51,728 nt of DNA. It comes from Candidatus Brocadiia bacterium (GTDB lineage: Bacteria; Planctomycetota; Brocadiia; CAIUPP01). The stretch covers positions 1 to 51,728 of the forward strand of contig JBEKCB010000036.1 in NCBI GenBank assembly GCA_050015075.1. The letters are read 5' to 3'. Below the pieces are notes generated by a model. That model made no database searches. It saw nothing but the letters and a program-made list of their open reading frames with translations, and had not been told where the DNA came from. The position numbers and the translations under genes are program-made. Shown in pieces: positions 104 through 38,316 of the stretch. Position 1 is the stretch's first letter. The number at the start of each line of letters is the position of its first letter.

Positions 104-2386
104 TTACACACAAGAGTTGACACTACCCGGTTCGGCAGCGCGCCGCCAGATCCATAGCGTCGCGAGACTCAGCGGCGCGACGCCGGCGCCGATGAAGATC
201 AGGTCCGCCGGCATCCGCAGCCACTCGAAGATGAGAACGTGGCGCTGGTCCAGGAATGCCGGCGAGCGCGCGTGCCAGTATCCGTTCCGGATCGAGTCCA
301 GGAACTGGAGCACACCGCTGGGGAACAGGCTCAACGCGACCATCAGCGCCAGGCCGATGTTGAGGCCCCAGAACGAAACGCGGATGTACTTCTCGACTTT
401 CCGCCAGTCGGCCTCCGTCGCCGACTGCCGCAGGACGAAGACCAGCAGCGCCACGCCGAGCATTCCGAAGACGCCCATCAGCGCGCCGTGCGCGTGGTTC
501 GGGGTCAGGTTCGTGCCTACCTCGTAATAGCTCACGACCGGCAGGTTGATCAGGAAGCCGAACACACCCGCGCCGATGAAGTTCCACACGCCGACCGAGA
601 TCAGGAAATAGAACGTCCACTTGTGCGGGATGCCGATGCGCTGTCCGCAGATTTCGCATTCCGATCGCATGAGCCGCATGAAGTCCGAGGCGTCCAGCGT
701 CAGCAGGATCAGCGGCACCACTTCCATCGCCGAGAACGTGGAGGAGAGCGCCAGCGACGCGGCCGATTGGCCCGTCCAGTACCAGTGATGGCCTGTGCCG
801 ATGATGCCGCCGCCGAGGAACAGGATGGCGTCGAGATAGATCACGCGCGTGGCCGTCTTCCGCGTGACCATGTTCAGCTTGTAGAACATCACCGCCACCA
901 TCACCGTCACGAACAGCTCGAAGAACCCTTCAACCCAGAGATGGATGATCCAGAACCGCCACGTGTCCGCCACGGTGAAGTGGCTCGCGGTGTTGAAGAA
1001 AAATGCCGGCAGATAAAAGAACGGGATCGCGAAGGCCGAGAGCAGGAACAAGGTGGTGATTTCGCGCTCGGGGGGATCGCGGCGCGCCGGGCCGACGGCG
1101 CGAACGAGCAGGATCGTCCACACGATGAGCCCGACCACGAGCAGAATCTGCCACACGCGGCCGATCTCGAGGTATTCCCAGCCCTGGCTGCCGAACCAGA
1201 ACCACATTTTACCGAGGAGTTGCTTCAGCCCGAACGCCTCTCCCAGCAGGCTGCCCGCAATCACCACCGCCAGCGCGACAAACAGGAAATGGATGCCGGC
1301 GATCTGGCCGCGCGGCTCCTGCTTTCCCAGCGCCGCGGCGAGGAACAGCCCGCCGCCGACGTAACAGGTCGCGATCCAGAAGATGGCCAACTGAAGATGC
1401 CACGTTCGCAGCAGGCTGCTCGGCAGGAACGACGGCAGATTGAACCCGTAGAAACTCTGAGGCTCGACGCGGTAGTGCGCCAGCGCGCCACCCGCTAACA
1501 CCTGCGCGAGGAAAAGCAGCGAGGCGACGGCGAAATACTTCAGCGTCGCCCGCTGCGTCCGGCTCGCGCCGCCGGGCAGCAACTCCGGATGGATATGCGG
1601 CTTGCGGCCGGACCAACCCAGGTAATCAAACCGGCCGAACGCGAACAGCACCGCCGCGGTCCCGGCCAGCAGGGCGATCAGGCTCAGCGCGCTCCAGAGG
1701 ACGGCTTCGGACGACGGCCCGTTGCCGATCGCCGGCTCATAGGGAAAATTATTCGTGTAGGAATAGCTCTTCCCGGGAACGCGCGCCGTCTCGGCCCACG
1801 CGGCCCAGGAGAAGAACGAGGTGAGTTGGCGAAGCTCTTCGGGATCCGAGATCGTCCCGGCCGGCAGTCCGCGGCTGGCGCGCGAGCCGGCGAAGTAATC
1901 GCGCCATTGCCCGATCTGCTTGCGGAAGGAAGCCGCTTCCGCGTCGGTGAACGCCAGCGTCCGCGTGCGCGCGTCGTAGCGGTTCTGCGACAACAGCTCG
2001 CGGACTTGCCCGGTGAGCATGGCCCGCTCGGGCGGCGCGAGTTCAGCGACGGGACGTTGAAAGTTCCGCTGCGCCAGGATGTCGTCCGCGTCCAACGCCA
2101 GTTGATGCAGATAGGCCGCCGAAAAATCCGGCCCCATGTACGCTCCGTGCCCCCAGAGCGTGCCATTGTCCATCAGCCCATGTTTGAGGAAAACCTGCTG
2201 GCCGGCGGTGATATCCGCGCCGGTAAAGAGCGTGATTCCGCCGGCATCCACGACCTTTTCAGGGATCGGCGGGCCGATCTGGTACGTCCTCACGGCGATC
2301 CAGATCAGCACGGCGAACCCGGCGGCCATAACCGACAGCACGCCGTATCGCCAACCGCGCGAGAGTTCCCGATCGTCCTCATGCAT
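104..2386 (-). CDS. norB: Quinol-dependent nitric oxide reductase (qNor, long-chain NorB/NorZ)
   Basis: GTLWGHGAYMGPDF, YTNNFP, RTWHLQ, HLWVEGFFE, GTGHHWYW, MEVVP and NHAHGALMG motifs; many TM helices; start moved to ATG 2386 behind GGAGG. Confidence 0.95.
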   Translation of the reverse strand: MHEDDRELSRGWRYGVLSVMAAGFAVLIWIAVRTYQIGPPIPEKVVDAGGITLFTGADITAGQQVFLKHGLMDNGTLWGHGAYMGPDFSAAYLHQLALDADDILAQRNFQRPVAELAPPERAMLTGQVRELLSQNRYDARTRTLAFTDAEAASFRKQIGQWRDYFAGSRASRGLPAGTISDPEELRQLTSFFSWAAWAETARVPGKSYSYTNNFPYEPAIGNGPSSEAVLWSALSLIALLAGTAAVLFAFGRFDYLGWSGRKPHIHPELLPGGASRTQRATLKYFAVASLLFLAQVLAGGALAHYRVEPQSFYGFNLPSFLPSSLLRTWHLQLAIFWIATCYVGGGLFLAAALGKQEPRGQIAGIHFLFVALAVVIAGSLLGEAFGLKQLLGKMWFWFGSQGWEYLEIGRVWQILLVVGLIVWTILLVRAVGPARRDPPEREITTLFLLSAFAIPFFYLPAFFFNTASHFTVADTWRFWIIHLWVEGFFELFVTVMVAVMFYKLNMVTRKTATRVIYLDAILFLGGGIIGTGHHWYWTGQSAASLALSSTFSAMEVVPLILLTLDASDFMRLMRSECEICGQRIGIPHKWTFYFLISVGVWNFIGAGVFGFLINLPVVSYYEVGTNLTPNHAHGALMGVFGMLGVALLVFVLRQSATEADWRKVEKYIRVSFWGLNIGLALMVALSLFPSGVLQFLDSIRNGYWHARSPAFLDQRHVLIFEWLRMPADLIFIGAGVAPLSLATLWIWRRAAEPGSVNSCV

Positions 2387-2407: not shown

Positions 2408-3238
2408 TCACGTCAGTTGGAGCGTCAGGCAGCGCGCCGCGCCGCCGGCCTTGCGGAACTCCGACAGGTCCAGCGGGAAAACAGTGAATCCGCGCCGCTT
2501 CAGCTCGCGCGCCAGGGATCGGCACGGCGCCGAAATCACCGCTTTTCGGCCGACCGAGACGGCATTGCACGCGAACTGGTACGCCTCCTCGTGCCGCACC
2601 GGCAAGAGGTCGGCGACGTTCTCCCGGATGACTCGCCGGCCGTAGCCGTCGAATGCGCCCGGGTAGTACAGCGCCAATTCCTTCGACAGCGGCATGAAGC
2701 AGGTGTCGAGATGATAGAAGTACGGGTTGACCAATTCGAGCGAGAGCACGCGCACGCCCAACGCCCTCCCGGCGGCGGCGTGAGTCTGGATGTCGCTGCG
2801 GAACCGGTAGCCCGCGAACAACCGATCACCCATCAGGAGCGCGTCGCCCGCGCCCTCGAACGAATGCCCGGCGGGCAGCGCGAGGACGCGATACCCATGC
2901 GCGCGGAACCAGCGCGTGAAATGCGGCTCCTCGCCCGCGCGCTCGCGGTATCGGAACCGGCTGGGGATGAAAATGCCTCGATGCGCGAGCCCGGCGTTGG
3001 CCGTAAACGTCATGTCCGGCAGCCCCGGCCGCGCCCGGCAGCAATGCACCGTCGCGCCGAGGTCTTCCTGAAGGGTCCTCCGCAGGCTCTGCCATTGCCT
3101 CAGCGCCAGCGGCCGGTTCGGCTGGCGGCGGCGGTCCATCCACGGATTAATGACGTATGCGATGCCGTAGAAGGTCGGACGGCACATGAAGAAATGATGG
3201 CGCGACGAGGAGGAGCGCTTGCTTTCATCGCGGCTCAC
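2408..3238 (-). CDS. Amidinotransferase-fold arginine dihydrolase (stand-alone ArgZ/AgrE N-terminal domain)
   Basis: YVINPWM, PDMTFTANAG, FEGAGD, FYHLDTCF and KAGGAARCLT motifs; GTG start at 3238 overlaps the upstream TGA (GTGA). Confidence 0.85.
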   Translation of the reverse strand: MSRDESKRSSSSRHHFFMCRPTFYGIAYVINPWMDRRRQPNRPLALRQWQSLRRTLQEDLGATVHCCRARPGLPDMTFTANAGLAHRGIFIPSRFRYRERAGEEPHFTRWFRAHGYRVLALPAGHSFEGAGDALLMGDRLFAGYRFRSDIQTHAAAGRALGVRVLSLELVNPYFYHLDTCFMPLSKELALYYPGAFDGYGRRVIRENVADLLPVRHEEAYQFACNAVSVGRKAVISAPCRSLARELKRRGFTVFPLDLSEFRKAGGAARCLTLQLT

Positions 3239-4458
3239 AGTTTCACCTTCAGCTCGAGCAACAGCTCGCGCAGGAACGGCTGCACGTCGGTGACGATGCC
3301 GATGGTCTGGAACGTGCCGCGGTCCATGAGCTTGGTCACGGCGCTCGGCTGGATGTCCGCGCAGACGACGCGCGTGTGCGCGGGGAGCATGTTGCCGGTC
3401 GCCACCGAGTGAAGGAGCGTGGCGACCATGATCGCCAGCCGGACATCGCGGGTGCGGCGGCGCATCTCGCGCTGCGCTTTTGTCACGTCGGAGATGACTT
3501 CCGGCAGCGGCCCGTCGTCGCGGATCGAGCCGGCGAGGACGACCTCGACTCCCTGCCTGACGCACGCGCGCATGATGCCGCTCTTCAGGATGCGCTTCTC
3601 CACCGCGCGCCGGATTCCGCCGGCAGCGCGGATGGTGTTGATCGCGCGGAGATGGTTCTCGTGCCCGGAGCGCGTGAGCGCGCCCTCGCGCAGCTCTACG
3701 CCGAGCGACGTCCCCATCAGCGCGGACTCGATGTCGTGCGCGGCGAGGGCGTTGCCGGCGAAGAGCCTCTGCATGTAGCCCGCCGTGATGAGCCGCTCGA
3801 GCAGCGGTCCCGCGCCCGAGTGCACGATGGCCGGCCCGCAGACCCAGAGAATCGGCCGGCCGGCCGCGCGCTCCTGTTTCATCAGCCTCGCGACGGACCG
3901 GATGAGCGCGCTTTTCGGCTTCTCGGTCGAGACCTCGCTGGTCATGAACTCGAAGTCCTCCGGCCGGCGGCGCATTTCGAGCGGGATCACGCGCACGCCC
4001 TGCTCGCCGACGACGATCCGGTCGCCGCGCCTCACGTCCGCCATCTTGATCGTCTCGGCCGCGCGTCCGGATGCGCCGATGCGGATGCCGCAGTCCATTT
4101 CCGGATTCTTGACGCCGACCCAGCGCCCGCGCAGGCGAACCTCGGTATCGAGATTGGTCGTTGCGTAGAAGCCCTTCGGGAAAATGCCTTTTTGTGCTGC
4201 GCGTTCCAGGCGGACCTCTCGGCGCTCCACCGGCTCAGCGCCGTAGCGCCCCACCGCGTGCAGGATGGTCTCCAGCATCTTCGGGTCGCGGTGCGCGATC
4301 AGGATGCGGGCGAAACTCGTGTCCTGCGCCCGCGCGCCGACCTTGATCTGCTGAATCTCGAAGCATGCCTTCCGCGACATGATCACGTCCAGCACGCGCG
4401 GCAGGACGAGCGAGTCAATCAGGTGCCCCCTGAGTTCGACGATTTCCTGCGCCACCAT
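3235..4458 (-). CDS. TIGR00300/LOR-SDH family protein, putative ornithine cyclodeaminase (ArgZ/AgrE C-terminal part)
   Basis: LRGHLIDS, FYATTN, EMDC, FEFMTSEVSTEKP, GNALAAHDIE, LAGSIRDDGPLP and KLMDRGT motifs; ATG 4458 with GGAGG. Confidence 0.9.
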   Translation of the reverse strand: MVAQEIVELRGHLIDSLVLPRVLDVIMSRKACFEIQQIKVGARAQDTSFARILIAHRDPKMLETILHAVGRYGAEPVERREVRLERAAQKGIFPKGFYATTNLDTEVRLRGRWVGVKNPEMDCGIRIGASGRAAETIKMADVRRGDRIVVGEQGVRVIPLEMRRRPEDFEFMTSEVSTEKPKSALIRSVARLMKQERAAGRPILWVCGPAIVHSGAGPLLERLITAGYMQRLFAGNALAAHDIESALMGTSLGVELREGALTRSGHENHLRAINTIRAAGGIRRAVEKRILKSGIMRACVRQGVEVVLAGSIRDDGPLPEVISDVTKAQREMRRRTRDVRLAIMVATLLHSVATGNMLPAHTRVVCADIQPSAVTKLMDRGTFQTIGIVTDVQPFLRELLLELKVKL

Positions 4459-4586
4459 TGCCCTCCGAGCGAAAAGTCCGCCGCGTTGCCCCATGCGAGG
4501 ACACCAGATCCCTTTGGTAGTGTATCAACAGGACCACGCGGTTGCCAGAGCCAGGAACGGACTTCCCGATCACCGGCATATGGCGC

Positions 4587-4615
4587 TTGAGGATCATGCG
4601 CGCACGGCCTATAAT
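4587..4615 (+). promoter_or_regulatory. Sigma70-type promoter for putA
   Basis: TTGAGG-N17-TATAAT about 50 bp upstream of ATG 4664. Confidence 0.65.
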
Positions 4616-4663
4616 CGGATTGAAGGGCGCTGGGGCGCTCGACCTCTGGGCGGGAGACGACAG

Positions 4664-7621
4664 ATGATTGAAGAGAGAAGCATCGAGGTTCTCACCGACC
4701 GCATCGGCCGCGAACTCCTGCAGCGAATCGAGGCTGCGAGGCCCAAGGATTATCGGGAGAAACTGGAAGCCGATCCGCTCATGGTCTGGAGCCGCGGCGG
4801 ACCGCGATTTCTCTCCGACGTCCTCCGCTTCGTGGATGTTTTTCCGGCCATTCGCAGCGACGCGGAGTTGATGGAATACCTGGCGGCCTACGTCGGCGAC
4901 CCGAAGCGGATTCTCATCGGCGCGGGCGCGCAGACCGACGACCTGCCGAAGGCGGTCCGTACACTCGTCGAGAATCTCAAGGCCCGGTTCGTCGCGGGCG
5001 AGACGATTGCTGAGGCCGTGGAGCAATGTCGCGGGCTGCGCCACGCGCGCTTCGGGTTCACGCTCGACCTCCTCGGCGAGGCGGTGACCAGCGAGCGCGA
5101 GGCGGAACAGTACCGGGACGCGTACCTGGAGCTCATCCGCGCCGCGGCACCGGCGGTGGCCGACTGGCCCGCCACACCGCCGGCGGGCAAGCCGGAGCGC
5201 GCATCGGCGGACCGATGCAGCCACGGCCGCATCCCGCGGCTGAATCTCTCGATCAAGCTCTCCTCGCTCTACAGCCGGTTCGACCCGATTGACCCGCTCG
5301 GCTCCGCCGAGGGCGCCGCGCCGCGGCTGCGCGCGCTCCTGGCCGCCGCACGTGCGCAGGGCGCGGCGATCAACGTGGACATGGAGCAATACGCGCTCAA
5401 GGATCTGACTCTTGAGGTTTTCAAGAAGGTGCTTCTGGAGCCGGAGTTCCGCGACTGGCCCGACGTGAGCATCACGATCCAGACCTACCTCCGCGAGAAC
5501 CGCGCCGACTTGGCTGCGCTGGCCGAGTGGGTGGAGAAGCGCGGCGCGCCGATCAACGTGCGCCTCGTCAAGGGCGCGTACTGGGACCACGAGGTGCAGC
5601 AGGCGCAGTACCGCAACTGGCCGTCGCCGGTGTACCTGACGAAGGAAGAGACCGACCGCGAGTTCGAGGCCGGAATCCGGTTCCTGCTGGAGCACCACGA
5701 GGCGCTCCGGCCGGCGATCGCCAGCCACAATGTGCGCAGCGCCGCGCGCGCGATGGCCGTCGCGGAACTGCTCGGATTGCCGCGCGACTGTGTGGAGTTC
5801 CAGACGCTGTACGGCCTTGGAGCGGAGTTGCGGCGCGCGCTGATTGAGATGGGTTTCCGGATGCGCGTGTACCGTCCGTTCGGCGCGCTAGTTCCGGGCA
5901 TGGCGTACCTTGTCCGGCGCGTCCTGGAAGTCACTTCCAAAGCGGGATTCCTGCAGCAGATGGCCGCCTCGCCGCTGCCGGCAGCCGGGCTGCTGGCGAC
6001 GCCGAGCCCGCCGGAGATGCCGCAGGGCCGGATTGAGCGCGTCGGGCTCGACGCGCCGTTCCGGAACGAGCCGGTCTCCGATTTCTCCCGGCGTGACGCG
6101 CGTGACGAACTGAGCGCCGCGATCGAGCGCGTCCGCGGCGAATTGTGCCGATTCTATCCACTCTGGATCGGCGACCATACGGAATCGGCGGGCGAGGAGT
6201 TGATCTCGGTCAATCCCTCAGCCAAGTCGGAAGTCGTCGGCCGCGTGGCGTGCGCCTCTCGCAAAGACGCTGCGAAGGCGGTCCGCGCCGCCGAGCGGGC
6301 GTTTCCGGCGTGGTCGAGGACGCCGCCGCGAGAGCGCGCCGCCCTGCTGCTTCGCTCCGCCGCTCTAATGCGGCGGAGGCGCTTCGAGCTGGCGGCGTGG
6401 GAAATCCTCGAGGAGGCCAAGTCCTGGCGCGAGGCGGATGCCGATGTCGCCGAGGCGATTGACCATCTCGAGTATTACGCGCGCGAAATGGCGCGGCTCG
6501 CGGCGCCGCGGCGGCGCGACGTGCCGGGCGAGGACAACGAGTGCCTTTACGAACCGCGCGGCGTGGCCGTTGCGATCACGCCGTGGAATTTTCCGCTCGC
6601 CATTCTGACCGGCGCGACTTCCGCCGCCGCCGTCGCCGGGAATGCCGTCATCATGAAGCCGGCCGAGCAGTCCTCCGTCGTCGCGGCGAAGCTGATGGAA
6701 ATCTGGAACGAGGCGGGCGCGCCGCCGGGTGTGATCCAGTACCTGCCGGGCCGCGGCGAAATCGCAGGCGAATTCCTGGTGCGCCATCCGCGCGTGCAGA
6801 TCATCGCGTTCACCGGCTCGCTGGCCGTCGGACTGCGGATTCAGCGCCTGGCCGCGCGCGTCGGGCCGAAGCAGCGCGACCTCAAGCGCGTGATCGCGGA
6901 AATGGGCGGGAAGAACGCCATCATCGTGGACCGCGACGCCGATCTCGACCAGGCGGTGCCCGGAGTCGTCGTCTCCGCCTTCGGTTATCAGGGGCAGAAA
7001 TGCTCGGCCTGCTCGCGAGTGATCGTGCACCGAGCGGTCTATTCCGTTTTTCTCGAGCGGCTGGTCGAGGCGACGCGGAGCCTGCCGATCGGCCCGGCGC
7101 AGGACCCGCATGCCGCGCTGGGGCCGCTCATCAGCGACGAGGCCGCGGGCAAAGTGCGGAAGTACATGGAACTCGCGCGCGATTCAGGGCGCATTGCGTA
7201 CCAGGCGACGACGCCGGAGACGGAAGGTTTTTACGTCGGGCCGATGATCCTGGCGGAGGTCGCTCCGGGTTCGCGCCTGGCCACTGAGGAGGTTTTCGGG
7301 CCTTTGCTGTGCGTGATGGAGGCGGAGGATTTCGATCAGGCCATCGGCATCGCTAACGAGCCGCGCTACGGACTGACCGGCGGACTTTACAGCAGAAATC
7401 CGGACCACCTCCGGCGGTTCAAGTCCGAGTGCCGCGCGGGCAACCTCTATGCGAACCGGCCGATCACCGGCGCGCTGGTGGACCGGCAGCCGTTCGGCGG
7501 CATCGGGCTTTCGGGCGCCGGCTCGAAGGCGGGCGGGCCGGACTACCTGCTCCAGTTCATGCAGCCGAAGAACTGCACGGAATACACTGTGCGCCGTGGC
7601 TTCGCGCCGCCGCGGGATTGA
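4664..7621 (+). CDS. putA: Bifunctional proline dehydrogenase / P5C dehydrogenase PutA
   Basis: PRODH motifs (DLLGE, DMEQY, RLVKGAYWD, ASHN, AYLVRR) fused to ALDH motifs (PWNFP, FTGS, EMGGKN, GQKCSACS, EEVFGP, QPFGG); start moved to ATG 4664. Confidence 0.95.
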   Translation: MIEERSIEVLTDRIGRELLQRIEAARPKDYREKLEADPLMVWSRGGPRFLSDVLRFVDVFPAIRSDAELMEYLAAYVGDPKRILIGAGAQTDDLPKAVRTLVENLKARFVAGETIAEAVEQCRGLRHARFGFTLDLLGEAVTSEREAEQYRDAYLELIRAAAPAVADWPATPPAGKPERASADRCSHGRIPRLNLSIKLSSLYSRFDPIDPLGSAEGAAPRLRALLAAARAQGAAINVDMEQYALKDLTLEVFKKVLLEPEFRDWPDVSITIQTYLRENRADLAALAEWVEKRGAPINVRLVKGAYWDHEVQQAQYRNWPSPVYLTKEETDREFEAGIRFLLEHHEALRPAIASHNVRSAARAMAVAELLGLPRDCVEFQTLYGLGAELRRALIEMGFRMRVYRPFGALVPGMAYLVRRVLEVTSKAGFLQQMAASPLPAAGLLATPSPPEMPQGRIERVGLDAPFRNEPVSDFSRRDARDELSAAIERVRGELCRFYPLWIGDHTESAGEELISVNPSAKSEVVGRVACASRKDAAKAVRAAERAFPAWSRTPPRERAALLLRSAALMRRRRFELAAWEILEEAKSWREADADVAEAIDHLEYYAREMARLAAPRRRDVPGEDNECLYEPRGVAVAITPWNFPLAILTGATSAAAVAGNAVIMKPAEQSSVVAAKLMEIWNEAGAPPGVIQYLPGRGEIAGEFLVRHPRVQIIAFTGSLAVGLRIQRLAARVGPKQRDLKRVIAEMGGKNAIIVDRDADLDQAVPGVVVSAFGYQGQKCSACSRVIVHRAVYSVFLERLVEATRSLPIGPAQDPHAALGPLISDEAAGKVRKYMELARDSGRIAYQATTPETEGFYVGPMILAEVAPGSRLATEEVFGPLLCVMEAEDFDQAIGIANEPRYGLTGGLYSRNPDHLRRFKSECRAGNLYANRPITGALVDRQPFGGIGLSGAGSKAGGPDYLLQFMQPKNCTEYTVRRGFAPPRD

Positions 7622-14081: not shown

Positions 14082-15260
14082 ATGGACGCCCGGAAGCTGA
14101 TCGTCGAGTGGATGGAGCCGCGCCGGCAGGAGCTGGTGGACTTGCTCTCCCGGCTGATCGCCGCGCGCACCGAGAACCCGCCCGGCAATGAGTCGGCCGC
14201 CGCGGCGGAACTCGAGGCGTTCTTCAACCGGCACGGCATCCCATTCGAGTCGTTCGCGGCGAAGCCGGGCCGCGTCAACCTCATTGGCCGCGTCGGCTCC
14301 GGCGGCAAAACACTGCTGCTGCCCGGACACCTCGACACGGTCCCGGCCGGCGACGGCTGGACCGTCCCGCCGTTCGCCGCCACCATCCGCGGCGGCCGGA
14401 TGTGCGGCCGCGGCGCTTCCGACGACAAAGGCCCCACCGCCGCGCTCGCGCTCGCCGGCGCCTGCCTGAAGGCATGCTTTCAACTGAGCGGCACGGTCCT
14501 CCTGGCCGGCGTCGCGGATGAGGAGGTGGGCTCCGCGCTCGGACTCGAATACCTGCTCCGCGAGGGCAAGCTCGCCGCCGACTTCGCCATCGTGCCGGAC
14601 GTCGCCGGCAACATGAAGACGATTGACCTGGCCGAAAAGGGGCTGCTCTTCGTCGAGATCGTTTCGCACGGCCGCCAGGCGCACGGCTCCACGCCCGAGA
14701 AGGGCGTCAACGCGCTCTGGAACCTCATCGGCCTGCTGAATCGAATCCGGGACCGCGGCGTTCCTGCGGCGCAACATGCGCTGCTCAGCCCGCCCACCTG
14801 CAACCTGGGCATGATGAACGGCGGCGCCGCGCCGAATATCGTGCCCGGCCGCGCCTCCGCCGTGCTGGATATCCGCTTCCTGCCCGGACAGAGCGCCGAG
14901 CAGATGAAGGGCTGGCTGGCCTCGCTGATGCGCGAGGCGGAACGCGAGATCAAGGACGCGCGCTTCGAGCTTCACGAGAAATCGTCTCTGCCGCCGACCG
15001 AAATGCCCGGCGACAATCCGCTGGTGCGCATCATCCAGGACGCAGCGCGCGAGATGACCGGGCAATCGCCGAGGCCCTCCGGAATGAGCGGGGCGACCGT
15101 CGCGAAGCAGCTTATCGCGCACGGCATTATGGCGGTCGGCTTCGCCCCGGGCGATTCGGACCAGGCCCACCAGGCGGATGAAAGCGTGGACATCGAGGAA
15201 CTGGTGACGTTCGCCAAGGTCATCGCCCTCGTCGCCGTGCGGTTGCTCGGAACGCGATGA
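14082..15260 (+). CDS. M20 family metallo-deacylase (ArgE/DapE-like)
   Basis: GHLDTVP, GRGASDDKG, DEE, AHGSTP and AHQADE motifs. Confidence 0.9.
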   Translation: MDARKLIVEWMEPRRQELVDLLSRLIAARTENPPGNESAAAAELEAFFNRHGIPFESFAAKPGRVNLIGRVGSGGKTLLLPGHLDTVPAGDGWTVPPFAATIRGGRMCGRGASDDKGPTAALALAGACLKACFQLSGTVLLAGVADEEVGSALGLEYLLREGKLAADFAIVPDVAGNMKTIDLAEKGLLFVEIVSHGRQAHGSTPEKGVNALWNLIGLLNRIRDRGVPAAQHALLSPPTCNLGMMNGGAAPNIVPGRASAVLDIRFLPGQSAEQMKGWLASLMREAEREIKDARFELHEKSSLPPTEMPGDNPLVRIIQDAAREMTGQSPRPSGMSGATVAKQLIAHGIMAVGFAPGDSDQAHQADESVDIEELVTFAKVIALVAVRLLGTR

Positions 15261-19628: not shown

Positions 19629-21062
19629 CTACTTCCAAGTCACCTCCGCCGGCGGGGTTTTCTCTCCATTCGGTCCCGGTGGAATGTTGTTGCGGTATTT
19701 CCGCCACATTTCATTTACGAATGGATCCCAGGTCTCTTTCTGCCTTGCCCAGTCCGAAGAAAAATCAAGGTTTGTCTGCTGCTTGATGATTTTCAGAGCT
19801 TCTGTATCATCTTCCGTCATCCAGCGATCCACATAACTGAAAAACGCGTCATGGTCCCAGTGTTTTTCGGCATGCATCAGCCTTGCGGCCAACGCTTCGC
19901 CCACCCATCCATGGCTGGTGGAGGCGCGACGATAAGATTCGTTCATGCTGCTCACCCAGTCCTTGGGTTGCAGGTGTTCATACTGGCCCCATCCAGGCTG
20001 CTTAGTGTTGATATCGTGGCCGTTCTTGTCAACACCTTGATGCCCTGCATAAACCACCCCGGCGCCCGTCCAGGAACGCTTGAACAAGGTCTGCATATCC
20101 TCGCCGAACTGGATTGCAGTATAAGTTTTGTTGGGTGAGGCCATCTCCTCATCGCCCAGCATGATCCCCGCAAACACAATCGGCCATTTCCTTCCTGTCC
20201 CGTGCCCTCCAAAACCCTGCCAGCCATGAAAACCGGCCCGCACGATGCCCCACAAATCAATTCCGTTCTGCACAAAACCGATCAAGAGCTTCTCTTTTTT
20301 CTCCAGCGGCAGATCGGTCATTAAGATCAAGCTCGCCAGGCCTGCGGCCCTGCCTAACTCGTGTCCGTACTGCGGCTGATAATCCTTCGGCGCGTCAAAT
20401 GAAAAGAAAACCAGATCAAGCCAGACGCGGATGTAGTGATCTTCGAAATTCTTCAGCGTCAGCACACCCTGATCGGTCTCAAAAGTATCCTTGCCGTAAG
20501 GCAAACTGGGCAACAGGTTCCTTTTCAGATTCCGCGCCAGGTAGATTTTCTGCGTTCTGTCGCAATAGGACGGACGAAATGCGTCCGCCGGCACGGCCGC
20601 CGCAAGGCAAGTGAGCACAGAGGCGCTCTTGACCGGGGAACCGTAGTGCTCGTTCCTTCGGAGCCAGGCCGAAAGTTTCGCGAGTTCCTCATCGGTGGTG
20701 CTGATCGTGGAAATCAGCGCATCGCCCGGTTTCATATGAATCGGCAAGGGAGTGCACATCTTGGGATCATAACGGTCCTCCTCTTCGCGGTTGTCATATC
20801 CGCTGGCACTGTCGTTAAGCGGCGGGTTCAACTCGCACCCATTCCGCCCGTTTCCCGGCGGAGGAGTGATTGAAACCACTTCGCAGTCGCCCACGACATA
20901 ATAGTCCCCGGTGACAAACCGTCCAACCTCTGCCGGTTCACTCAGTTTCCATGTAATCCCGTATTGGGTGATGGTATCGGTTTTCTCGGATCGAGCGTTC
21001 TGAGTCAACGTACAAAAGAGAACGGCTGCGACGACAAGACAAACGTTCTTAGATAAAGACAT
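19629..21062 (-). CDS. Secreted hypothetical protein with lower GC than its neighbours
   Basis: 477-aa ORF, GGAGG RBS, Sec-type signal peptide, Trp/Tyr/His/Asp-rich, visibly more AT-rich codons. Confidence 0.8.
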   Translation of the reverse strand: MSLSKNVCLVVAAVLFCTLTQNARSEKTDTITQYGITWKLSEPAEVGRFVTGDYYVVGDCEVVSITPPPGNGRNGCELNPPLNDSASGYDNREEEDRYDPKMCTPLPIHMKPGDALISTISTTDEELAKLSAWLRRNEHYGSPVKSASVLTCLAAAVPADAFRPSYCDRTQKIYLARNLKRNLLPSLPYGKDTFETDQGVLTLKNFEDHYIRVWLDLVFFSFDAPKDYQPQYGHELGRAAGLASLILMTDLPLEKKEKLLIGFVQNGIDLWGIVRAGFHGWQGFGGHGTGRKWPIVFAGIMLGDEEMASPNKTYTAIQFGEDMQTLFKRSWTGAGVVYAGHQGVDKNGHDINTKQPGWGQYEHLQPKDWVSSMNESYRRASTSHGWVGEALAARLMHAEKHWDHDAFFSYVDRWMTEDDTEALKIIKQQTNLDFSSDWARQKETWDPFVNEMWRKYRNNIPPGPNGEKTPPAEVTWK

Positions 21063-28660: not shown

Positions 28661-28755
28661 CCGAACGGTCGTAAGCGCGCGCTGCATTCGAATTCCGGAC
28701 TATGTTGACGTTGAAAAGACGGGCATGGATACCTCAACATAAAGGCCGGGAACCA

Positions 28756-30309
28756 ATGAAGATAAAAGCTGAGCAGTCGCGGGGCTTCGCTACGAGGAAG
28801 TGGGACGCGGGAGCCGTCCTTGGCGCTCTCTGGTTGGCCGCCCTGTCATGTCTGCCCGTCGCCGGCCAGAACACACCCGAGCCGGTGTCGGGTGCTCAGG
28901 CTCACCAGACGGTGGCATCTGTCACAACGAGCGACGGCAAGGTATTCGCGGACGTGAAAGCCCTGAGGGTCGAAGGCGACAAGGTGCTTCTGAGTTATTC
29001 CGGGGGCGCGGAGTGGGTTGCCCTTAACTCGCTCTCCGATGAAGCGCGAAAGAGCCTGGGCTTGCGCACGCGCGAAGAGCAGGCTTTATTTGAGATGGCC
29101 CTGGGCGCCATGGTCCCCGACTGGCGTGAGGTCAACGCCAACCGCCTGTTCCTGGCTTGGCTTGCGGAGAAGAATGCCGAGGATCCGGTCAGCCGGGCTG
29201 CTCTTATGAGGAAAGCCCTGCAAGAGAGCGATTTCAGGCGGGTGGCCGAAATCATGAACGCTTGGAAGGCGGCTCAAGGGGCGGCGGAGCAGGAGCGTTT
29301 GGCCCGGAAGGAGCGCGAAGATCGCTGGCGCGATGCGGCTATGAGGGACCTCGATAGACCGAGTCACAGGGTCAGTTTCGTAGGGCCGGACGGGACGACC
29401 GTAACGAAGGAATCGTCGGCTCTGACGCCCGAAGAAAGTGCGCTCTACGTAAGGCACTACATCGAGGTGCATGAGGCCATCTGGAGGGAGACCGCTAAGG
29501 AGCCGGCGCGCGGCGAAGAGCACGCGCAGGCTGAGGCTGCGAAGAACTCCACGCAGGATGAGGCCAGCCAGAGATTGGCCGGACCGAATCACGAGGTCAG
29601 CTTCACAGGACCGGACGGGACGACCATAAAAAAAGATTCGTCGGCTCTGACGCCCGAGGAGAGGGCGCTCTACATAAAGCAGTACGCGGCGGCAAAGGAG
29701 GCGTCCGAAGAACACTGGCGGGAAATGGCTGTGAGGAACCTCGATGGACCGAATCACAGGGTCAGCTTCGCAGGGCCCGATGGGACGAACGTAACGAAAG
29801 ATTCGTCGCTGCTGACGCCCGAAGAGCGGACGCTCTATATTAATCATTACGTAGAGTTGAGAGTGGCGGCCGAAGAGCGCCGACGCTGGATGGAAGAGGC
29901 TAGAAAGACCCTCGATGGGCCGAACCATGAGGTCAGCTTCACAGGCCCGGATGGAAAGCGCATAACGAAAGATTCGTCGCTGCTGACGCCCGCGGAGAAG
30001 GCGGCCTACATCAGGCAATACCTGGAGGAGAATGCGCCTTACGCTCAGGAGGCGGTCGCGCGGAGGAATGCGCGCCTAAATTACTTGCGGGATGAGGCTG
30101 CCAATCGCCTCGCAGGGCAGAATCACGCGGTCAGCTTCATAGGTCCGGACGGGAAGCGCATAACGAAAGATTCGTCGCTGCTGACGCCCGCGGAGAGGAC
30201 GCGCTACATAAGCCAGTACGCGGAAGAGCACGCGGCTGCCGGCAATACGCCGGCCACTGCCGCGCCGGCCACGCCCGCGCCAGCCACGCCCGCGCAGCAC
30301 AGCAAGTGA
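28756..30309 (+). CDS. Secreted protein with five ~45-aa internal repeats
   Basis: Signal peptide, small beta-rich N-terminal domain, five NHxVSFxGPDGxxITKDSSxLTPxE repeats and a PATPA tail; start 28702 or 28756. Confidence 0.85.
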   Translation: MKIKAEQSRGFATRKWDAGAVLGALWLAALSCLPVAGQNTPEPVSGAQAHQTVASVTTSDGKVFADVKALRVEGDKVLLSYSGGAEWVALNSLSDEARKSLGLRTREEQALFEMALGAMVPDWREVNANRLFLAWLAEKNAEDPVSRAALMRKALQESDFRRVAEIMNAWKAAQGAAEQERLARKEREDRWRDAAMRDLDRPSHRVSFVGPDGTTVTKESSALTPEESALYVRHYIEVHEAIWRETAKEPARGEEHAQAEAAKNSTQDEASQRLAGPNHEVSFTGPDGTTIKKDSSALTPEERALYIKQYAAAKEASEEHWREMAVRNLDGPNHRVSFAGPDGTNVTKDSSLLTPEERTLYINHYVELRVAAEERRRWMEEARKTLDGPNHEVSFTGPDGKRITKDSSLLTPAEKAAYIRQYLEENAPYAQEAVARRNARLNYLRDEAANRLAGQNHAVSFIGPDGKRITKDSSLLTPAERTRYISQYAEEHAAAGNTPATAAPATPAPATPAQHSK

Positions 30310-37115: not shown

Positions 37116-37170
37116 CCGGCGGATGGATGAGGACTCCTTTCGGGCTGGTCCTTTCCGGAGGCAATCGGCC

Positions 37171-38316
37171 ATGAGAAAACACAGACAGAACTGGCTCGAC
37201 ATCTTCAGCGGCTTCCGCGTTGCGCTCGACGCGCGCAAGATCATCCTGGGGACCCTCGGCGCGTACGCCACCATCTTCGTCGTGCTCGGCTTCCTCTCGG
37301 TGGCCGGCAACTGGTGGCCCGGCGCGCCAGGGCTCATGGTCGGCCTGCTGGCGGATCCCTTTACCACCGTCTGCAGTATATTGCGCACTCTGCCGGGGCA
37401 GTGCTGCGCGAATGTCCACGCCCTGCGCGATCCGGCCACGTGCTGCATGGCCTTCCAGAAACTGGCCTTCCTCGCGGCCGGCGGCATCGTGCTGCTCTTC
37501 ATCTGGTCGTTCTTCGGCGGCGCCATCGCGCGCATCGCCGCGCTCGATTTCGCTCACGACGAGCGCCCGCAGATCGGCCAGGCCATTGCCTTCAGCTCCG
37601 GCAAATTCGGCTCGTTCTTCTGGTCGCCCATCGTGCCGCTGATCTTCGTCGCCGTCCTCCTGCTGTGCAACGTGCTCCTCGGAGTCGTCGGCCGCATCCC
37701 CGGCGCCGGGCCGATCATCATGGGCCTCTTCTATGCGCTGGCCGCCGTCAGCGCGTTCCTCGTCGTCCTGCTGCTGATCGGTACGGTCTTCGGCTCGCTC
37801 TTCATGTGGCCGACCATCGCCATGGAAGGCACCGACGCGTTCGACGCGATCAGCCGCGCGTTCAATTATCTCTACGCGCGCCCGTGGAAGACGCTCTGGT
37901 GCGTCCTCGTCGCGGCCGTGTACGGCCTGGCCGTGCTGCTCTTCGTCACCGCGTTCGCCGGCCTGCTGCTCTACATCGCGGAACAGGCCGTCGCGGCGGG
38001 CATGGGATACCGGTTCGCGCGGATCGGCTTTTTCCTCCGATGGGGCGCTCCGGCGGACGGAACCACGGTCCCTCAACTCTGGGCGGCGATGTGGATAAAG
38101 GTCGTGCGCGTCACGGTCGTCGGCCTCGTGCTCGGCTACTGGGCCAGCTACAAGATCAGCGCGATGACGATCATCTACAGCGTCCTCCGCCGCGACGTGG
38201 ACGGCACGGACATGAACGAGGTCTTCCTGCCCGAGCCGGAAGAAGAGACGCCGGCGGAACCGCCGGCGGAGCCGAAGCCCGAGACCGCCGCCGGAGAGCA
38301 ACCGAAGTCTGAATGA
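37171..38316 (+). CDS. Multi-pass membrane protein of unknown function
   Basis: About 6 hydrophobic segments, EGTDAFDAISRAF and LRRDVDG motifs; ATG 37171 after GGAGG. Confidence 0.8.
   Translation: MRKHRQNWLDIFSGFRVALDARKIILGTLGAYATIFVVLGFLSVAGNWWPGAPGLMVGLLADPFTTVCSILRTLPGQCCANVHALRDPATCCMAFQKLAFLAAGGIVLLFIWSFFGGAIARIAALDFAHDERPQIGQAIAFSSGKFGSFFWSPIVPLIFVAVLLLCNVLLGVVGRIPGAGPIIMGLFYALAAVSAFLVVLLLIGTVFGSLFMWPTIAMEGTDAFDAISRAFNYLYARPWKTLWCVLVAAVYGLAVLLFVTAFAGLLLYIAEQAVAAGMGYRFARIGFFLRWGAPADGTTVPQLWAAMWIKVVRVTVVGLVLGYWASYKISAMTIIYSVLRRDVDGTDMNEVFLPEPEEETPAEPPAEPKPETAAGEQPKSE

What the first reader, a model, noticed from the sequence alone, without database searches (positions are those of the whole stretch)
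2408..7621. Split, order-reversed ArgZ/AgrE plus divergent PutA: a complete Arg-Orn-Pro-Glu route in a non-cyanobacterial-looking genome
Seen: a TIGR00300 gene translationally coupled (GTGA) to an amidinotransferase with INPWM, FTANAG, EGAGD, YHLDTC and GGAARC motifs, head-to-head with putA. Known: cyanobacterial ArgZ/AgrE fuses an N-terminal arginine dihydrolase (FTAN, where ADI has FTRD) to a C-terminal ornithine cyclodeaminase and works with PutA. Inference: here the two halves are separate genes in reverse order and clustered with putA as a catabolic divergon releasing ammonia. This is a possible pre-fusion state.
Basis: partly seen in the sequence, partly recalled or inferred. Interest (0 to 1): 0.75.

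Follow-up and report, generated by a model that had tools for sequence, protein, structure and literature searches.

The report
Two-gene arginine-to-proline operon beside putA
The two enzyme activities that cyanobacteria carry in one fused arginine-degrading protein are encoded here as two neighbouring genes next to a proline-oxidising gene, a layout that recurs in several other bacterial groups and probably breaks arginine down to glutamate while releasing ammonia.

Summary
A TIGR00300 ornithine cyclodeaminase gene (OCD, 3235-4458, minus) overlaps by GTGA with an ArgZ-type hydrolase gene (ADH, 2408-3238). A full-length putA (4664-7621, plus) lies head-to-head. The hydrolase matches the ArgZ/AgrE N-domain (TM 0.91-0.92) and keeps the Asn and Cys that ArgZ depositors mutated (N71, C264). 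At two sites where DDAH has Asp and Lys, it has Asn and Asp. Arg to Orn to Pro to Glu is the likely route, but nothing was assayed. The layout is not rare: 26 of 80 GTDB loci have the same OCD-then-ADH pair, under 7 phylum labels, mostly Planctomycetota and Verrucomicrobiota; putA is adjacent in 3 of 80. 'Pre-fusion state' is weak: 120 of 120 fused proteins examined have the opposite order, and the trees of both halves keep operon and fusion apart, although AU tests do not reject a shared origin (p=0.11, 0.30). Verdict: new variant of a known pathway, moderate interest.

The parts
2408..3238 (-). ArgZ-N-domain-type guanidino hydrolase, putative stand-alone arginine dihydrolase, 276 aa. N81/E128/H176/D178/C270 correspond to AgrE/ArgZ N71/E118/H168/D170/C264.
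3235..4458 (-). TIGR00300 ornithine cyclodeaminase (NCBIfam name: nickel-pincer nucleotide-dependent), 407 aa; PF04455 + PF21571 + PF21570
3235..3238 (-). GTGA stop/start overlap (probable translational coupling)
4459..4663 (.). 205-nt divergent intergenic region
4587..4615 (+). sigma70-like site TTGAGG-17-TATAAT upstream of putA; 1 found against 0.8 expected in shuffles, so weak evidence alone
4664..7621 (+). bifunctional PutA (proline dehydrogenase + glutamate semialdehyde dehydrogenase), 985 aa
104..2386 (-). quinol-type nitric oxide reductase (PF22085 + PF00115), starting 21 nt after the hydrolase stop, co-oriented; possible third gene of the transcript, membership not shown
   Evidence: no match in 80 related loci

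Best explanation
A two-gene version of the arginine dihydrolase pathway, plus PutA. Step 1 (inferred): the 276-aa hydrolase attacks the guanidino carbon of arginine with Cys270, helped by the His176-Glu128 pair. Because it has Asn81 where citrulline-forming relatives have Asp, it hydrolyses twice and gives ornithine + CO2 + 2 NH3. Step 2 (inferred from family membership above the cut-off): the coupled TIGR00300 protein cyclises ornithine to proline + NH3, probably with a nickel-pincer dinucleotide made by lar genes elsewhere in the genome. Step 3 (inferred): the divergent PutA oxidises proline to glutamate. Net per arginine: 3 NH4+, CO2, glutamate and reducing equivalents. Shown: genes, overlap, residues, fold and recurrence. 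Inferred: all activities, co-transcription, cofactor and direction of flux. The operon is most likely a separate, widespread pairing of the same two partners, a cousin of the cyanobacterial fusion rather than its direct precursor.
For: The hydrolase model (pLDDT 96.6) matches the ArgZ N-domain at TM 0.91-0.92, rmsd 1.2 A, against TM 0.80-0.83 for DDAHs. The PDB titles name N71S and C264S/A mutants, and these sites align with N81 and C270. N81, R100, E128, H176 and C270 are present in 120 of 120 near stand-alone hits and 120 of 120 fused hits, and N81 in 25 of 25 operon loci. DDAH 3RHY has Asp and Lys at the N81 and D178 positions; PMC11659421 (passages) ties that Lys to dimethyl-substrate binding. 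The OCD passes TIGR00300, keeps all 74 columns that are at least 97% conserved among 318 homologues, and its best PDB sequence hit is 3C2Q from M. maripaludis. An M. maripaludis enzyme of this family is a confirmed OCD (PMC13759103 Table 2 and supplement). The pair recurs in 26 of 80 loci, always OCD first; L001 has all three genes in the same layout. Two representatives fuse this hydrolase to a class-III aminotransferase (P0385, P0419), which fits ornithine as the product. The AgrE-PutA stoichiometry is from PMC8262935 (whole text).
Against: There is no assay. The hydrolase is below the NCBIfam arginine dihydrolase cut-off (270.5 < 450) and scores nearly as well on the mycobacterial 'dimethylargininase' model (262.3 < 300). 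In the careful tree it lies on the same side of a starred branch as the actinobacterial 'ddaH' proteins, away from the fused ArgZ domains. putA is adjacent in only 3 of 80 loci. The window PutA has Val where three relatives and 4NM9 have Asn in YLxRRxLEN, and it is below all NCBIfam PutA cut-offs shown. No LarB/C/E family was found in the window or among 84 representative recurring neighbours. The AU tests do not reject operon + fusion as one clade.
Confidence: 0.68

Rival explanations
1. The pair supplies proline (biosynthesis or osmolyte) from arginine, and putA is an independently regulated neighbour, so this is not a catabolic divergon.
For: [quoted passage not shown]
Against: putA sits directly upstream of OCD in three other genomes, in two orientations (L001 and L007 divergent, L022 co-oriented). 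In the cyanobacterial route PutA is the next enzyme.
Confidence: 0.14
2. One reading: this operon preserves the state from which the ArgZ/AgrE fusion directly arose.
For: Stand-alone halves are far more diverse than the fusion. AU tests do not reject a joint clade (p=0.11 for OCD, p=0.30 for ADH). The loci were chosen for likeness to the window, so stand-alone forms nearest the fusion may be unsampled.
Against: The order is wrong for a simple read-through: 26 of 26 pairs are OCD-ADH and 120 of 120 fusions are ADH-OCD. In the ML trees the OCD operon clade (97/96) is apart from the fused clade (99/95), and the window OCD is closer to methanogen OCDs (46-49%) than to fused ones (mean 40%, max 43%). 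In the ADH tree a 96/98 branch separates the two.
Confidence: 0.15
3. The hydrolase is a DDAH or deiminase that makes citrulline, as the JGI and NCBI labels say.
For: Source labels read 'N-dimethylarginine dimethylaminohydrolase'. NF045659 scores 262 bits. A review calls the related Rv2323c a DDAH (PMC11008464 passages).
Against: It has Asn81 and Asp178, not Asp and Lys. The review cites only Hampel 2015, which calls the DDAH label an annotation and shows that the knockout loses most arginine-to-proline carbon flow, 49.8% to 6.4% (PMC4569260 sections 9 and 10). Citrulline is not the OCD substrate.
Confidence: 0.07
4. The two genes came from fission of an ArgZ-like fusion.
For: Both halves have clear homology to the fusion.
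Against: Neither half nests inside the fused clade, and fission alone would not reverse the order.
Confidence: 0.04

Closest known systems
Cyanobacterial ArgZ (Sll1336; PDB 6JUY, 6JUZ, 6JV0, 6JV1) and AgrE (Alr4995; PDB 6LRF-6LRH), with PutA
   Same: Same two modules, same catalytic residues in the hydrolase, same fold, and PutA as the next enzyme.
   Different: Two polypeptides, opposite order, different tree branches, putA adjacent; both halves are far below the NF052231 cut-off of 1025.
Stand-alone methanogen ornithine cyclodeaminase (M. maripaludis Q6LXX7; PDB 3C2Q from the same species), TIGR00300
   Same: Stand-alone, above the family cut-off, 46-49% identical to four methanogen OCDs.
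   Different: In the methanogen it serves proline synthesis; 0 of 4 methanogen loci have the hydrolase next to it.
Stand-alone ArgZ-N-like hydrolases: mycobacterial Rv2323c / NF045659 clade and Coxiella CBU_0279
   Same: Stand-alone hydrolase tied to arginine-to-proline flow (PMC4569260; bioRxiv 10.64898/2026.05.14.724635 passage). Four plasmid-borne actinobacterial members share every key site checked.
   Different: Rv2323c sits in a roc cluster with an ornithine aminotransferase gene. The Coxiella OCD has a distant locus tag (CBU_1727), and its family is not given in the passage read.
DDAH and arginine deiminase (guanidino-modifying superfamily)
   Same: Alpha/beta propeller fold and Cys-His-Glu chemistry.
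   Different: 15-20% identity; DDAH has Asp and Lys where this protein has Asn81 and Asp178. The ADI motif FTRD is recalled and appears in no call.

Membership tests
Bifunctional ArgZ/AgrE (NF052231) | Single polypeptide, hydrolase N-terminal to cyclodeaminase, score above 1025 | tested here: not met
   Two ORFs with a stop between them; 368.7 and 272.8 bits
Arginine dihydrolase domain (NF052232) | HMM score above the curated cut-off of 450 | tested here: not met
   270.5 bits, though it is the best single-domain family
Arginine dihydrolase domain (NF052232) | Propeller fold with Cys264-His168-Glu118 equivalents | tested here: met
   C270, H176, E128; TM 0.91-0.92. The role of His and Glu as the triad follows the superfamily description.
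Arginine dihydrolase domain (NF052232) | Asn at the ArgZ N71 position, not Asp | tested here: met
   N81. That this residue decides ornithine versus citrulline is recalled from Zhuang 2020, which was not held; only the PDB title of the N71S intermediate complex was seen.
Arginine dihydrolase domain (NF052232) | Arg converted to Orn + CO2 + 2 NH3 | not testable with these tools
   Needs an assay
Dimethylargininase (DDAH) | Lys two residues after the catalytic His and Asp at the N81 position; HMM cut-offs | tested here: not met
   Asp178 and Asn81; below all three DDAH cut-offs
TIGR00300 ornithine cyclodeaminase | Score above 410.8, full length, three domains | tested here: met
   480.3 bits, residues 5-404
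TIGR00300 ornithine cyclodeaminase | Conserved family columns intact | tested here: met
   74 of 74 columns at least 97% conserved in 318 homologues
TIGR00300 ornithine cyclodeaminase | Nickel-pincer cofactor supply (larB/C/E) in the genome | tested here: inconclusive
   None among 113 window ORFs scanned; the rest of the genome is unseen; the paper that defines the ligands was not held
Bifunctional PutA | PRODH and GSALDH domains with catalytic motifs in one chain | tested here: met
   PF01619 + PF00171, end-to-end match to 4NM9, 14 motifs present with one Asn-to-Val change
Bifunctional PutA | NCBIfam PutA cut-off | tested here: not met
   625.5 < 747 on NF008869; only the best 5 of 44 families were shown

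The most novel reading that the evidence does not exclude
The arginine dihydrolase route, regarded as a cyanobacterial trait, is a common nickel-pincer-dependent way of using arginine in Planctomycetota, Verrucomicrobiota and candidate phyla. It is encoded by an OCD-ADH operon that arose independently of the ArgZ fusion, so the same two partners were joined twice in opposite order. The small PF04455 domain, also found fused directly to the hydrolase in six 50%-clusters, may couple or regulate the two. In this lineage the operon may also be co-transcribed with a nitric oxide reductase.
Probability: 0.35. Interest if true: 0.62.

Novelty: new variant of a known kind. Interest (0 to 1): 0.4.

Why it matters
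If the activities hold, thousands of genes now labelled dimethylargininase, amidinotransferase or LOR/SDH-like need new names, and ammonia release from arginine should be credited to many more soil, sediment and sludge bacteria. A natural stand-alone dihydrolase and cyclodeaminase pair lets one test directly how much ornithine escapes between the two steps, a balance that PMC8262935 says has not been investigated for AgrE. A cultured carrier exists (Paludisphaera soli, L027). The surprise is limited, because the chemistry, the pathway and each stand-alone half are already known.

Tried and rejected
Alternative start at ATG 3187: less likely (no SD; relatives start earlier). Reverse-order full fusions (OCD-ADH): none among the best 120 of 1,110 long hits or 16 long representatives. 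P0451 joins a piece of OCD to a piece of the hydrolase and looks like an assembly or deletion chimera. L013 matched one motif by chance and L060 is only a partial aldehyde dehydrogenase; both were left out of the counts. Lar genes as recurring neighbours: none in 84 representatives of about 140 neighbour clusters, many of which were antisense frames. Conserved qNor link: 0 of 80 loci, but none of these loci is a close relative (best 56% identity, scan stopped at 600 rows). Independence of operon and fusion: preferred by ML, not shown by AU (the groups were chosen after seeing the trees; LG+G4, no mixture model; 45 of 120 and 61 of 212 rows used; the OCD root rests on one long branch). The cluster-member look-up could not be made, so the taxa of the closest relatives rest on the few source names. 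The ArgZ and AgrE structure papers, Desguin 2025 and Burnat 2019 were not held; they may already mention split forms. No complex prediction was run, because halves of a split gene tend to pass by likeness to the solved fusion.
Full report
Observation. The cyclodeaminase-family gene (OCD) runs 4458-3235 on the minus strand (407 aa) and passes TIGR00300 with 480.3 bits against 410.8. The hydrolase gene (ADH) runs 3238-2408 (276 aa); its GTG start overlaps the OCD stop as GTGA. The start is backed by an SD-like GAAGGTG and by relatives that begin M-S-R. The five motifs are present, once each in the window's six frames. putA (4664-7621, 985 aa) faces away across 205 nt that hold one sigma70-like site; 0.8 such sites are expected by chance in the 8 kb scanned. 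GC3 of the three genes (0.85-0.90) is like that of der and infB (0.88-0.91), so there is no compositional sign of recent transfer. The host is probably a planctomycete or a neighbour, inferred only from source names of OCD and ADH relatives.

The hydrolase. Its best solved relatives are AgrE and ArgZ (E about 1e-64 to 1e-68); DDAHs follow at 1e-4 to 1e-5. The AlphaFold model (pLDDT 96.6) matches the ArgZ N-domain at TM 0.91-0.92 and rmsd 1.2 A. Counting along the alignment, N81, E128, H176, D178 and C270 fall on AgrE N71, E118, H168, D170 and C264; the PDB titles name N71S and C264S/A mutants. N81, R100, E128, H176 and C270 are invariant in 120 of 120 near stand-alone hits and 120 of 120 fused hits. 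Among 137 distant representatives N81 is kept in 127, and three distant plasmid homologues have Asp there. DDAH 3RHY has Asp at the N81 position and Lys at the D178 position, and PMC11659421 (passages) links that Lys to the dimethylamino group. That Asn71 decides ornithine versus citrulline is my recall of Zhuang 2020, which I could not read. Against this reading: the protein is below the NCBIfam dihydrolase cut-off (270.5 < 450) and close behind on the mycobacterial dimethylargininase model (262.3 < 300). That mycobacterial label is described as an annotation in PMC4569260 (abstract, sections 9 and 10), whose knockout data show loss of arginine-to-proline flow. Two representatives fuse this hydrolase to a class-III aminotransferase, and a Streptomyces plasmid copy lies beside a SidA/IucD/PvdA monooxygenase. 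Both fit ornithine as the product.

The cyclodeaminase. It has the three AgrE C-terminal domains, keeps 74 of 74 highly conserved columns, and its closest solved sequence is M. maripaludis 3C2Q. An M. maripaludis enzyme of this family is listed as an experimentally supported OCD in PMC13759103 (Table 2 passage and supplement passages). NCBIfam now names the family nickel-pincer nucleotide-dependent. PMC13524815 (passages) cites Desguin 2025 for a nickel-pincer adenine dinucleotide in an ornithine cyclodeaminase; the Desguin paper was not held, and that it concerns this family I take from the NCBIfam name. No LarB/C/E family was found among 113 window ORFs, so cofactor supply is unverified. PutA aligns end to end with 4NM9 and keeps 14 motifs, with one Asn-to-Val change of unknown effect.

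How common is the layout? One scan of GTDB returned 80 loci, the best of 600 rows, all with 46-56% identity. In 26 of 80 the hydrolase follows the OCD directly, on the same strand, as a separate ORF; 5 of the other 54 have under 350 nt of downstream sequence. By phylum label: Planctomycetota 17 of 30, Verrucomicrobiota 4 of 5, Omnitrophota 1 of 2, Armatimonadota 1 of 2, Methylomirabilota 1 of 1, Bacteroidota 1 of 1, Actinomycetota 1 of 16, and none in the other eight phyla (labels of assembled genomes may be wrong). Six have an in-frame start overlapping the OCD stop by 4 nt. putA is adjacent in 3 of 80: divergent in L001 (all three genes, same layout as the window) and L007 (contig ends after OCD), and co-oriented in L022. 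In the window's own clade, 23 of the 66 best OCD hits share a longest-contig length with one of the 60 best hydrolase hits, indirect evidence that the pair is conserved there too.

Pre-fusion? All 120 fused proteins examined are ADH-OCD, and all 26 operons are OCD-ADH. In the careful OCD tree (45 rows) the 11 operon OCDs used and the window fall in a 97/96 clade with other stand-alone OCDs, and the fusions in a 99/95 clade, with methanogen and other stand-alone OCDs between them on weak branches. In the careful ADH tree (61 rows) a 96/98 branch puts the window, the operon loci and the actinobacterial proteins on one side and the fusions on the other. The larger FastTree runs also keep window and fusions apart, although they place the actinobacterial hydrolases outside both. 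Forcing operon and fusion together costs 26.9 and 15.0 log-likelihood units but is not rejected (p-AU 0.11 and 0.30). So fission is unlikely, a direct precursor is disfavoured, and two independent pairings are preferred but not shown. Six representative clusters carry one or two copies of the OCD's N-terminal PF04455 domain fused in front of the hydrolase, in operon order.

Surroundings. A complete qNor gene starts 21 nt after the hydrolase stop, with no terminator-like site between them. It may share the transcript, but 0 of 80 more distant loci carry it.

What is in print. Nine searches found the fused pathway (PMC8262935, whole text; PMC10504260 and PMC7542463, passages), the stand-alone methanogen OCD, and stand-alone hydrolases in Mycobacterium and Coxiella (bioRxiv 10.64898/2026.05.14.724635, one passage; its supplements were not seen). 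They found no description of the OCD-ADH operon or of the putA divergon. The four primary papers most likely to mention it were not held, so absence from print is not established.

Verdict. This is a real, intact-looking and fairly widespread split form of a known pathway. It works like ArgZ/AgrE + PutA (confidence about 0.7) but is not a member of the bifunctional family. New variant of a known kind; interest 0.4.

Noticed in passing
window 104-2386 (-): Quinol-type nitric oxide reductase gene 21 nt downstream of the hydrolase, co-oriented, with no terminator-like site between; not seen in 80 more distant loci.
   Followed up: partly
proteins P0364, P0367, P0381, P0384, P0386, P0387: One or two copies of the OCD N-terminal PF04455 domain fused directly in front of the hydrolase, at several places in the tree; may be regulatory or the remains of an operon deletion.
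   Followed up: partly
proteins P0385, P0419: Hydrolase fused to a class-III aminotransferase, a possible arginine dihydrolase-ornithine aminotransferase fusion.
   Followed up: partly
L085:4010-6213 and L083:3959-7079: Actinobacterial 'dimethylargininase' genes with the Asn-type active site lie beside a SidA/IucD/PvdA monooxygenase or inside an NRPS cluster; they may supply ornithine and be misnamed.
   Followed up: no
window 4664-7621 (+), residue about 423: PutA has Val where relatives have Asn in the YLxRRxLEN motif.
   Followed up: no
P0250: A full ADH-OCD fusion labelled Ca. Limnocylindrales; if the label is right, the fusion also occurs outside cyanobacteria.
   Followed up: no
window 19629-21062 (-), 28702-30309 (+), 37123-38316 (+): Long ORFs with no Pfam or NCBIfam match; not examined further.
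   Followed up: no
window 14082-15260 (+): ArgE/DapE-family deacylase about 6.5 kb from putA; a link to ornithine metabolism was not tested.
   Followed up: no
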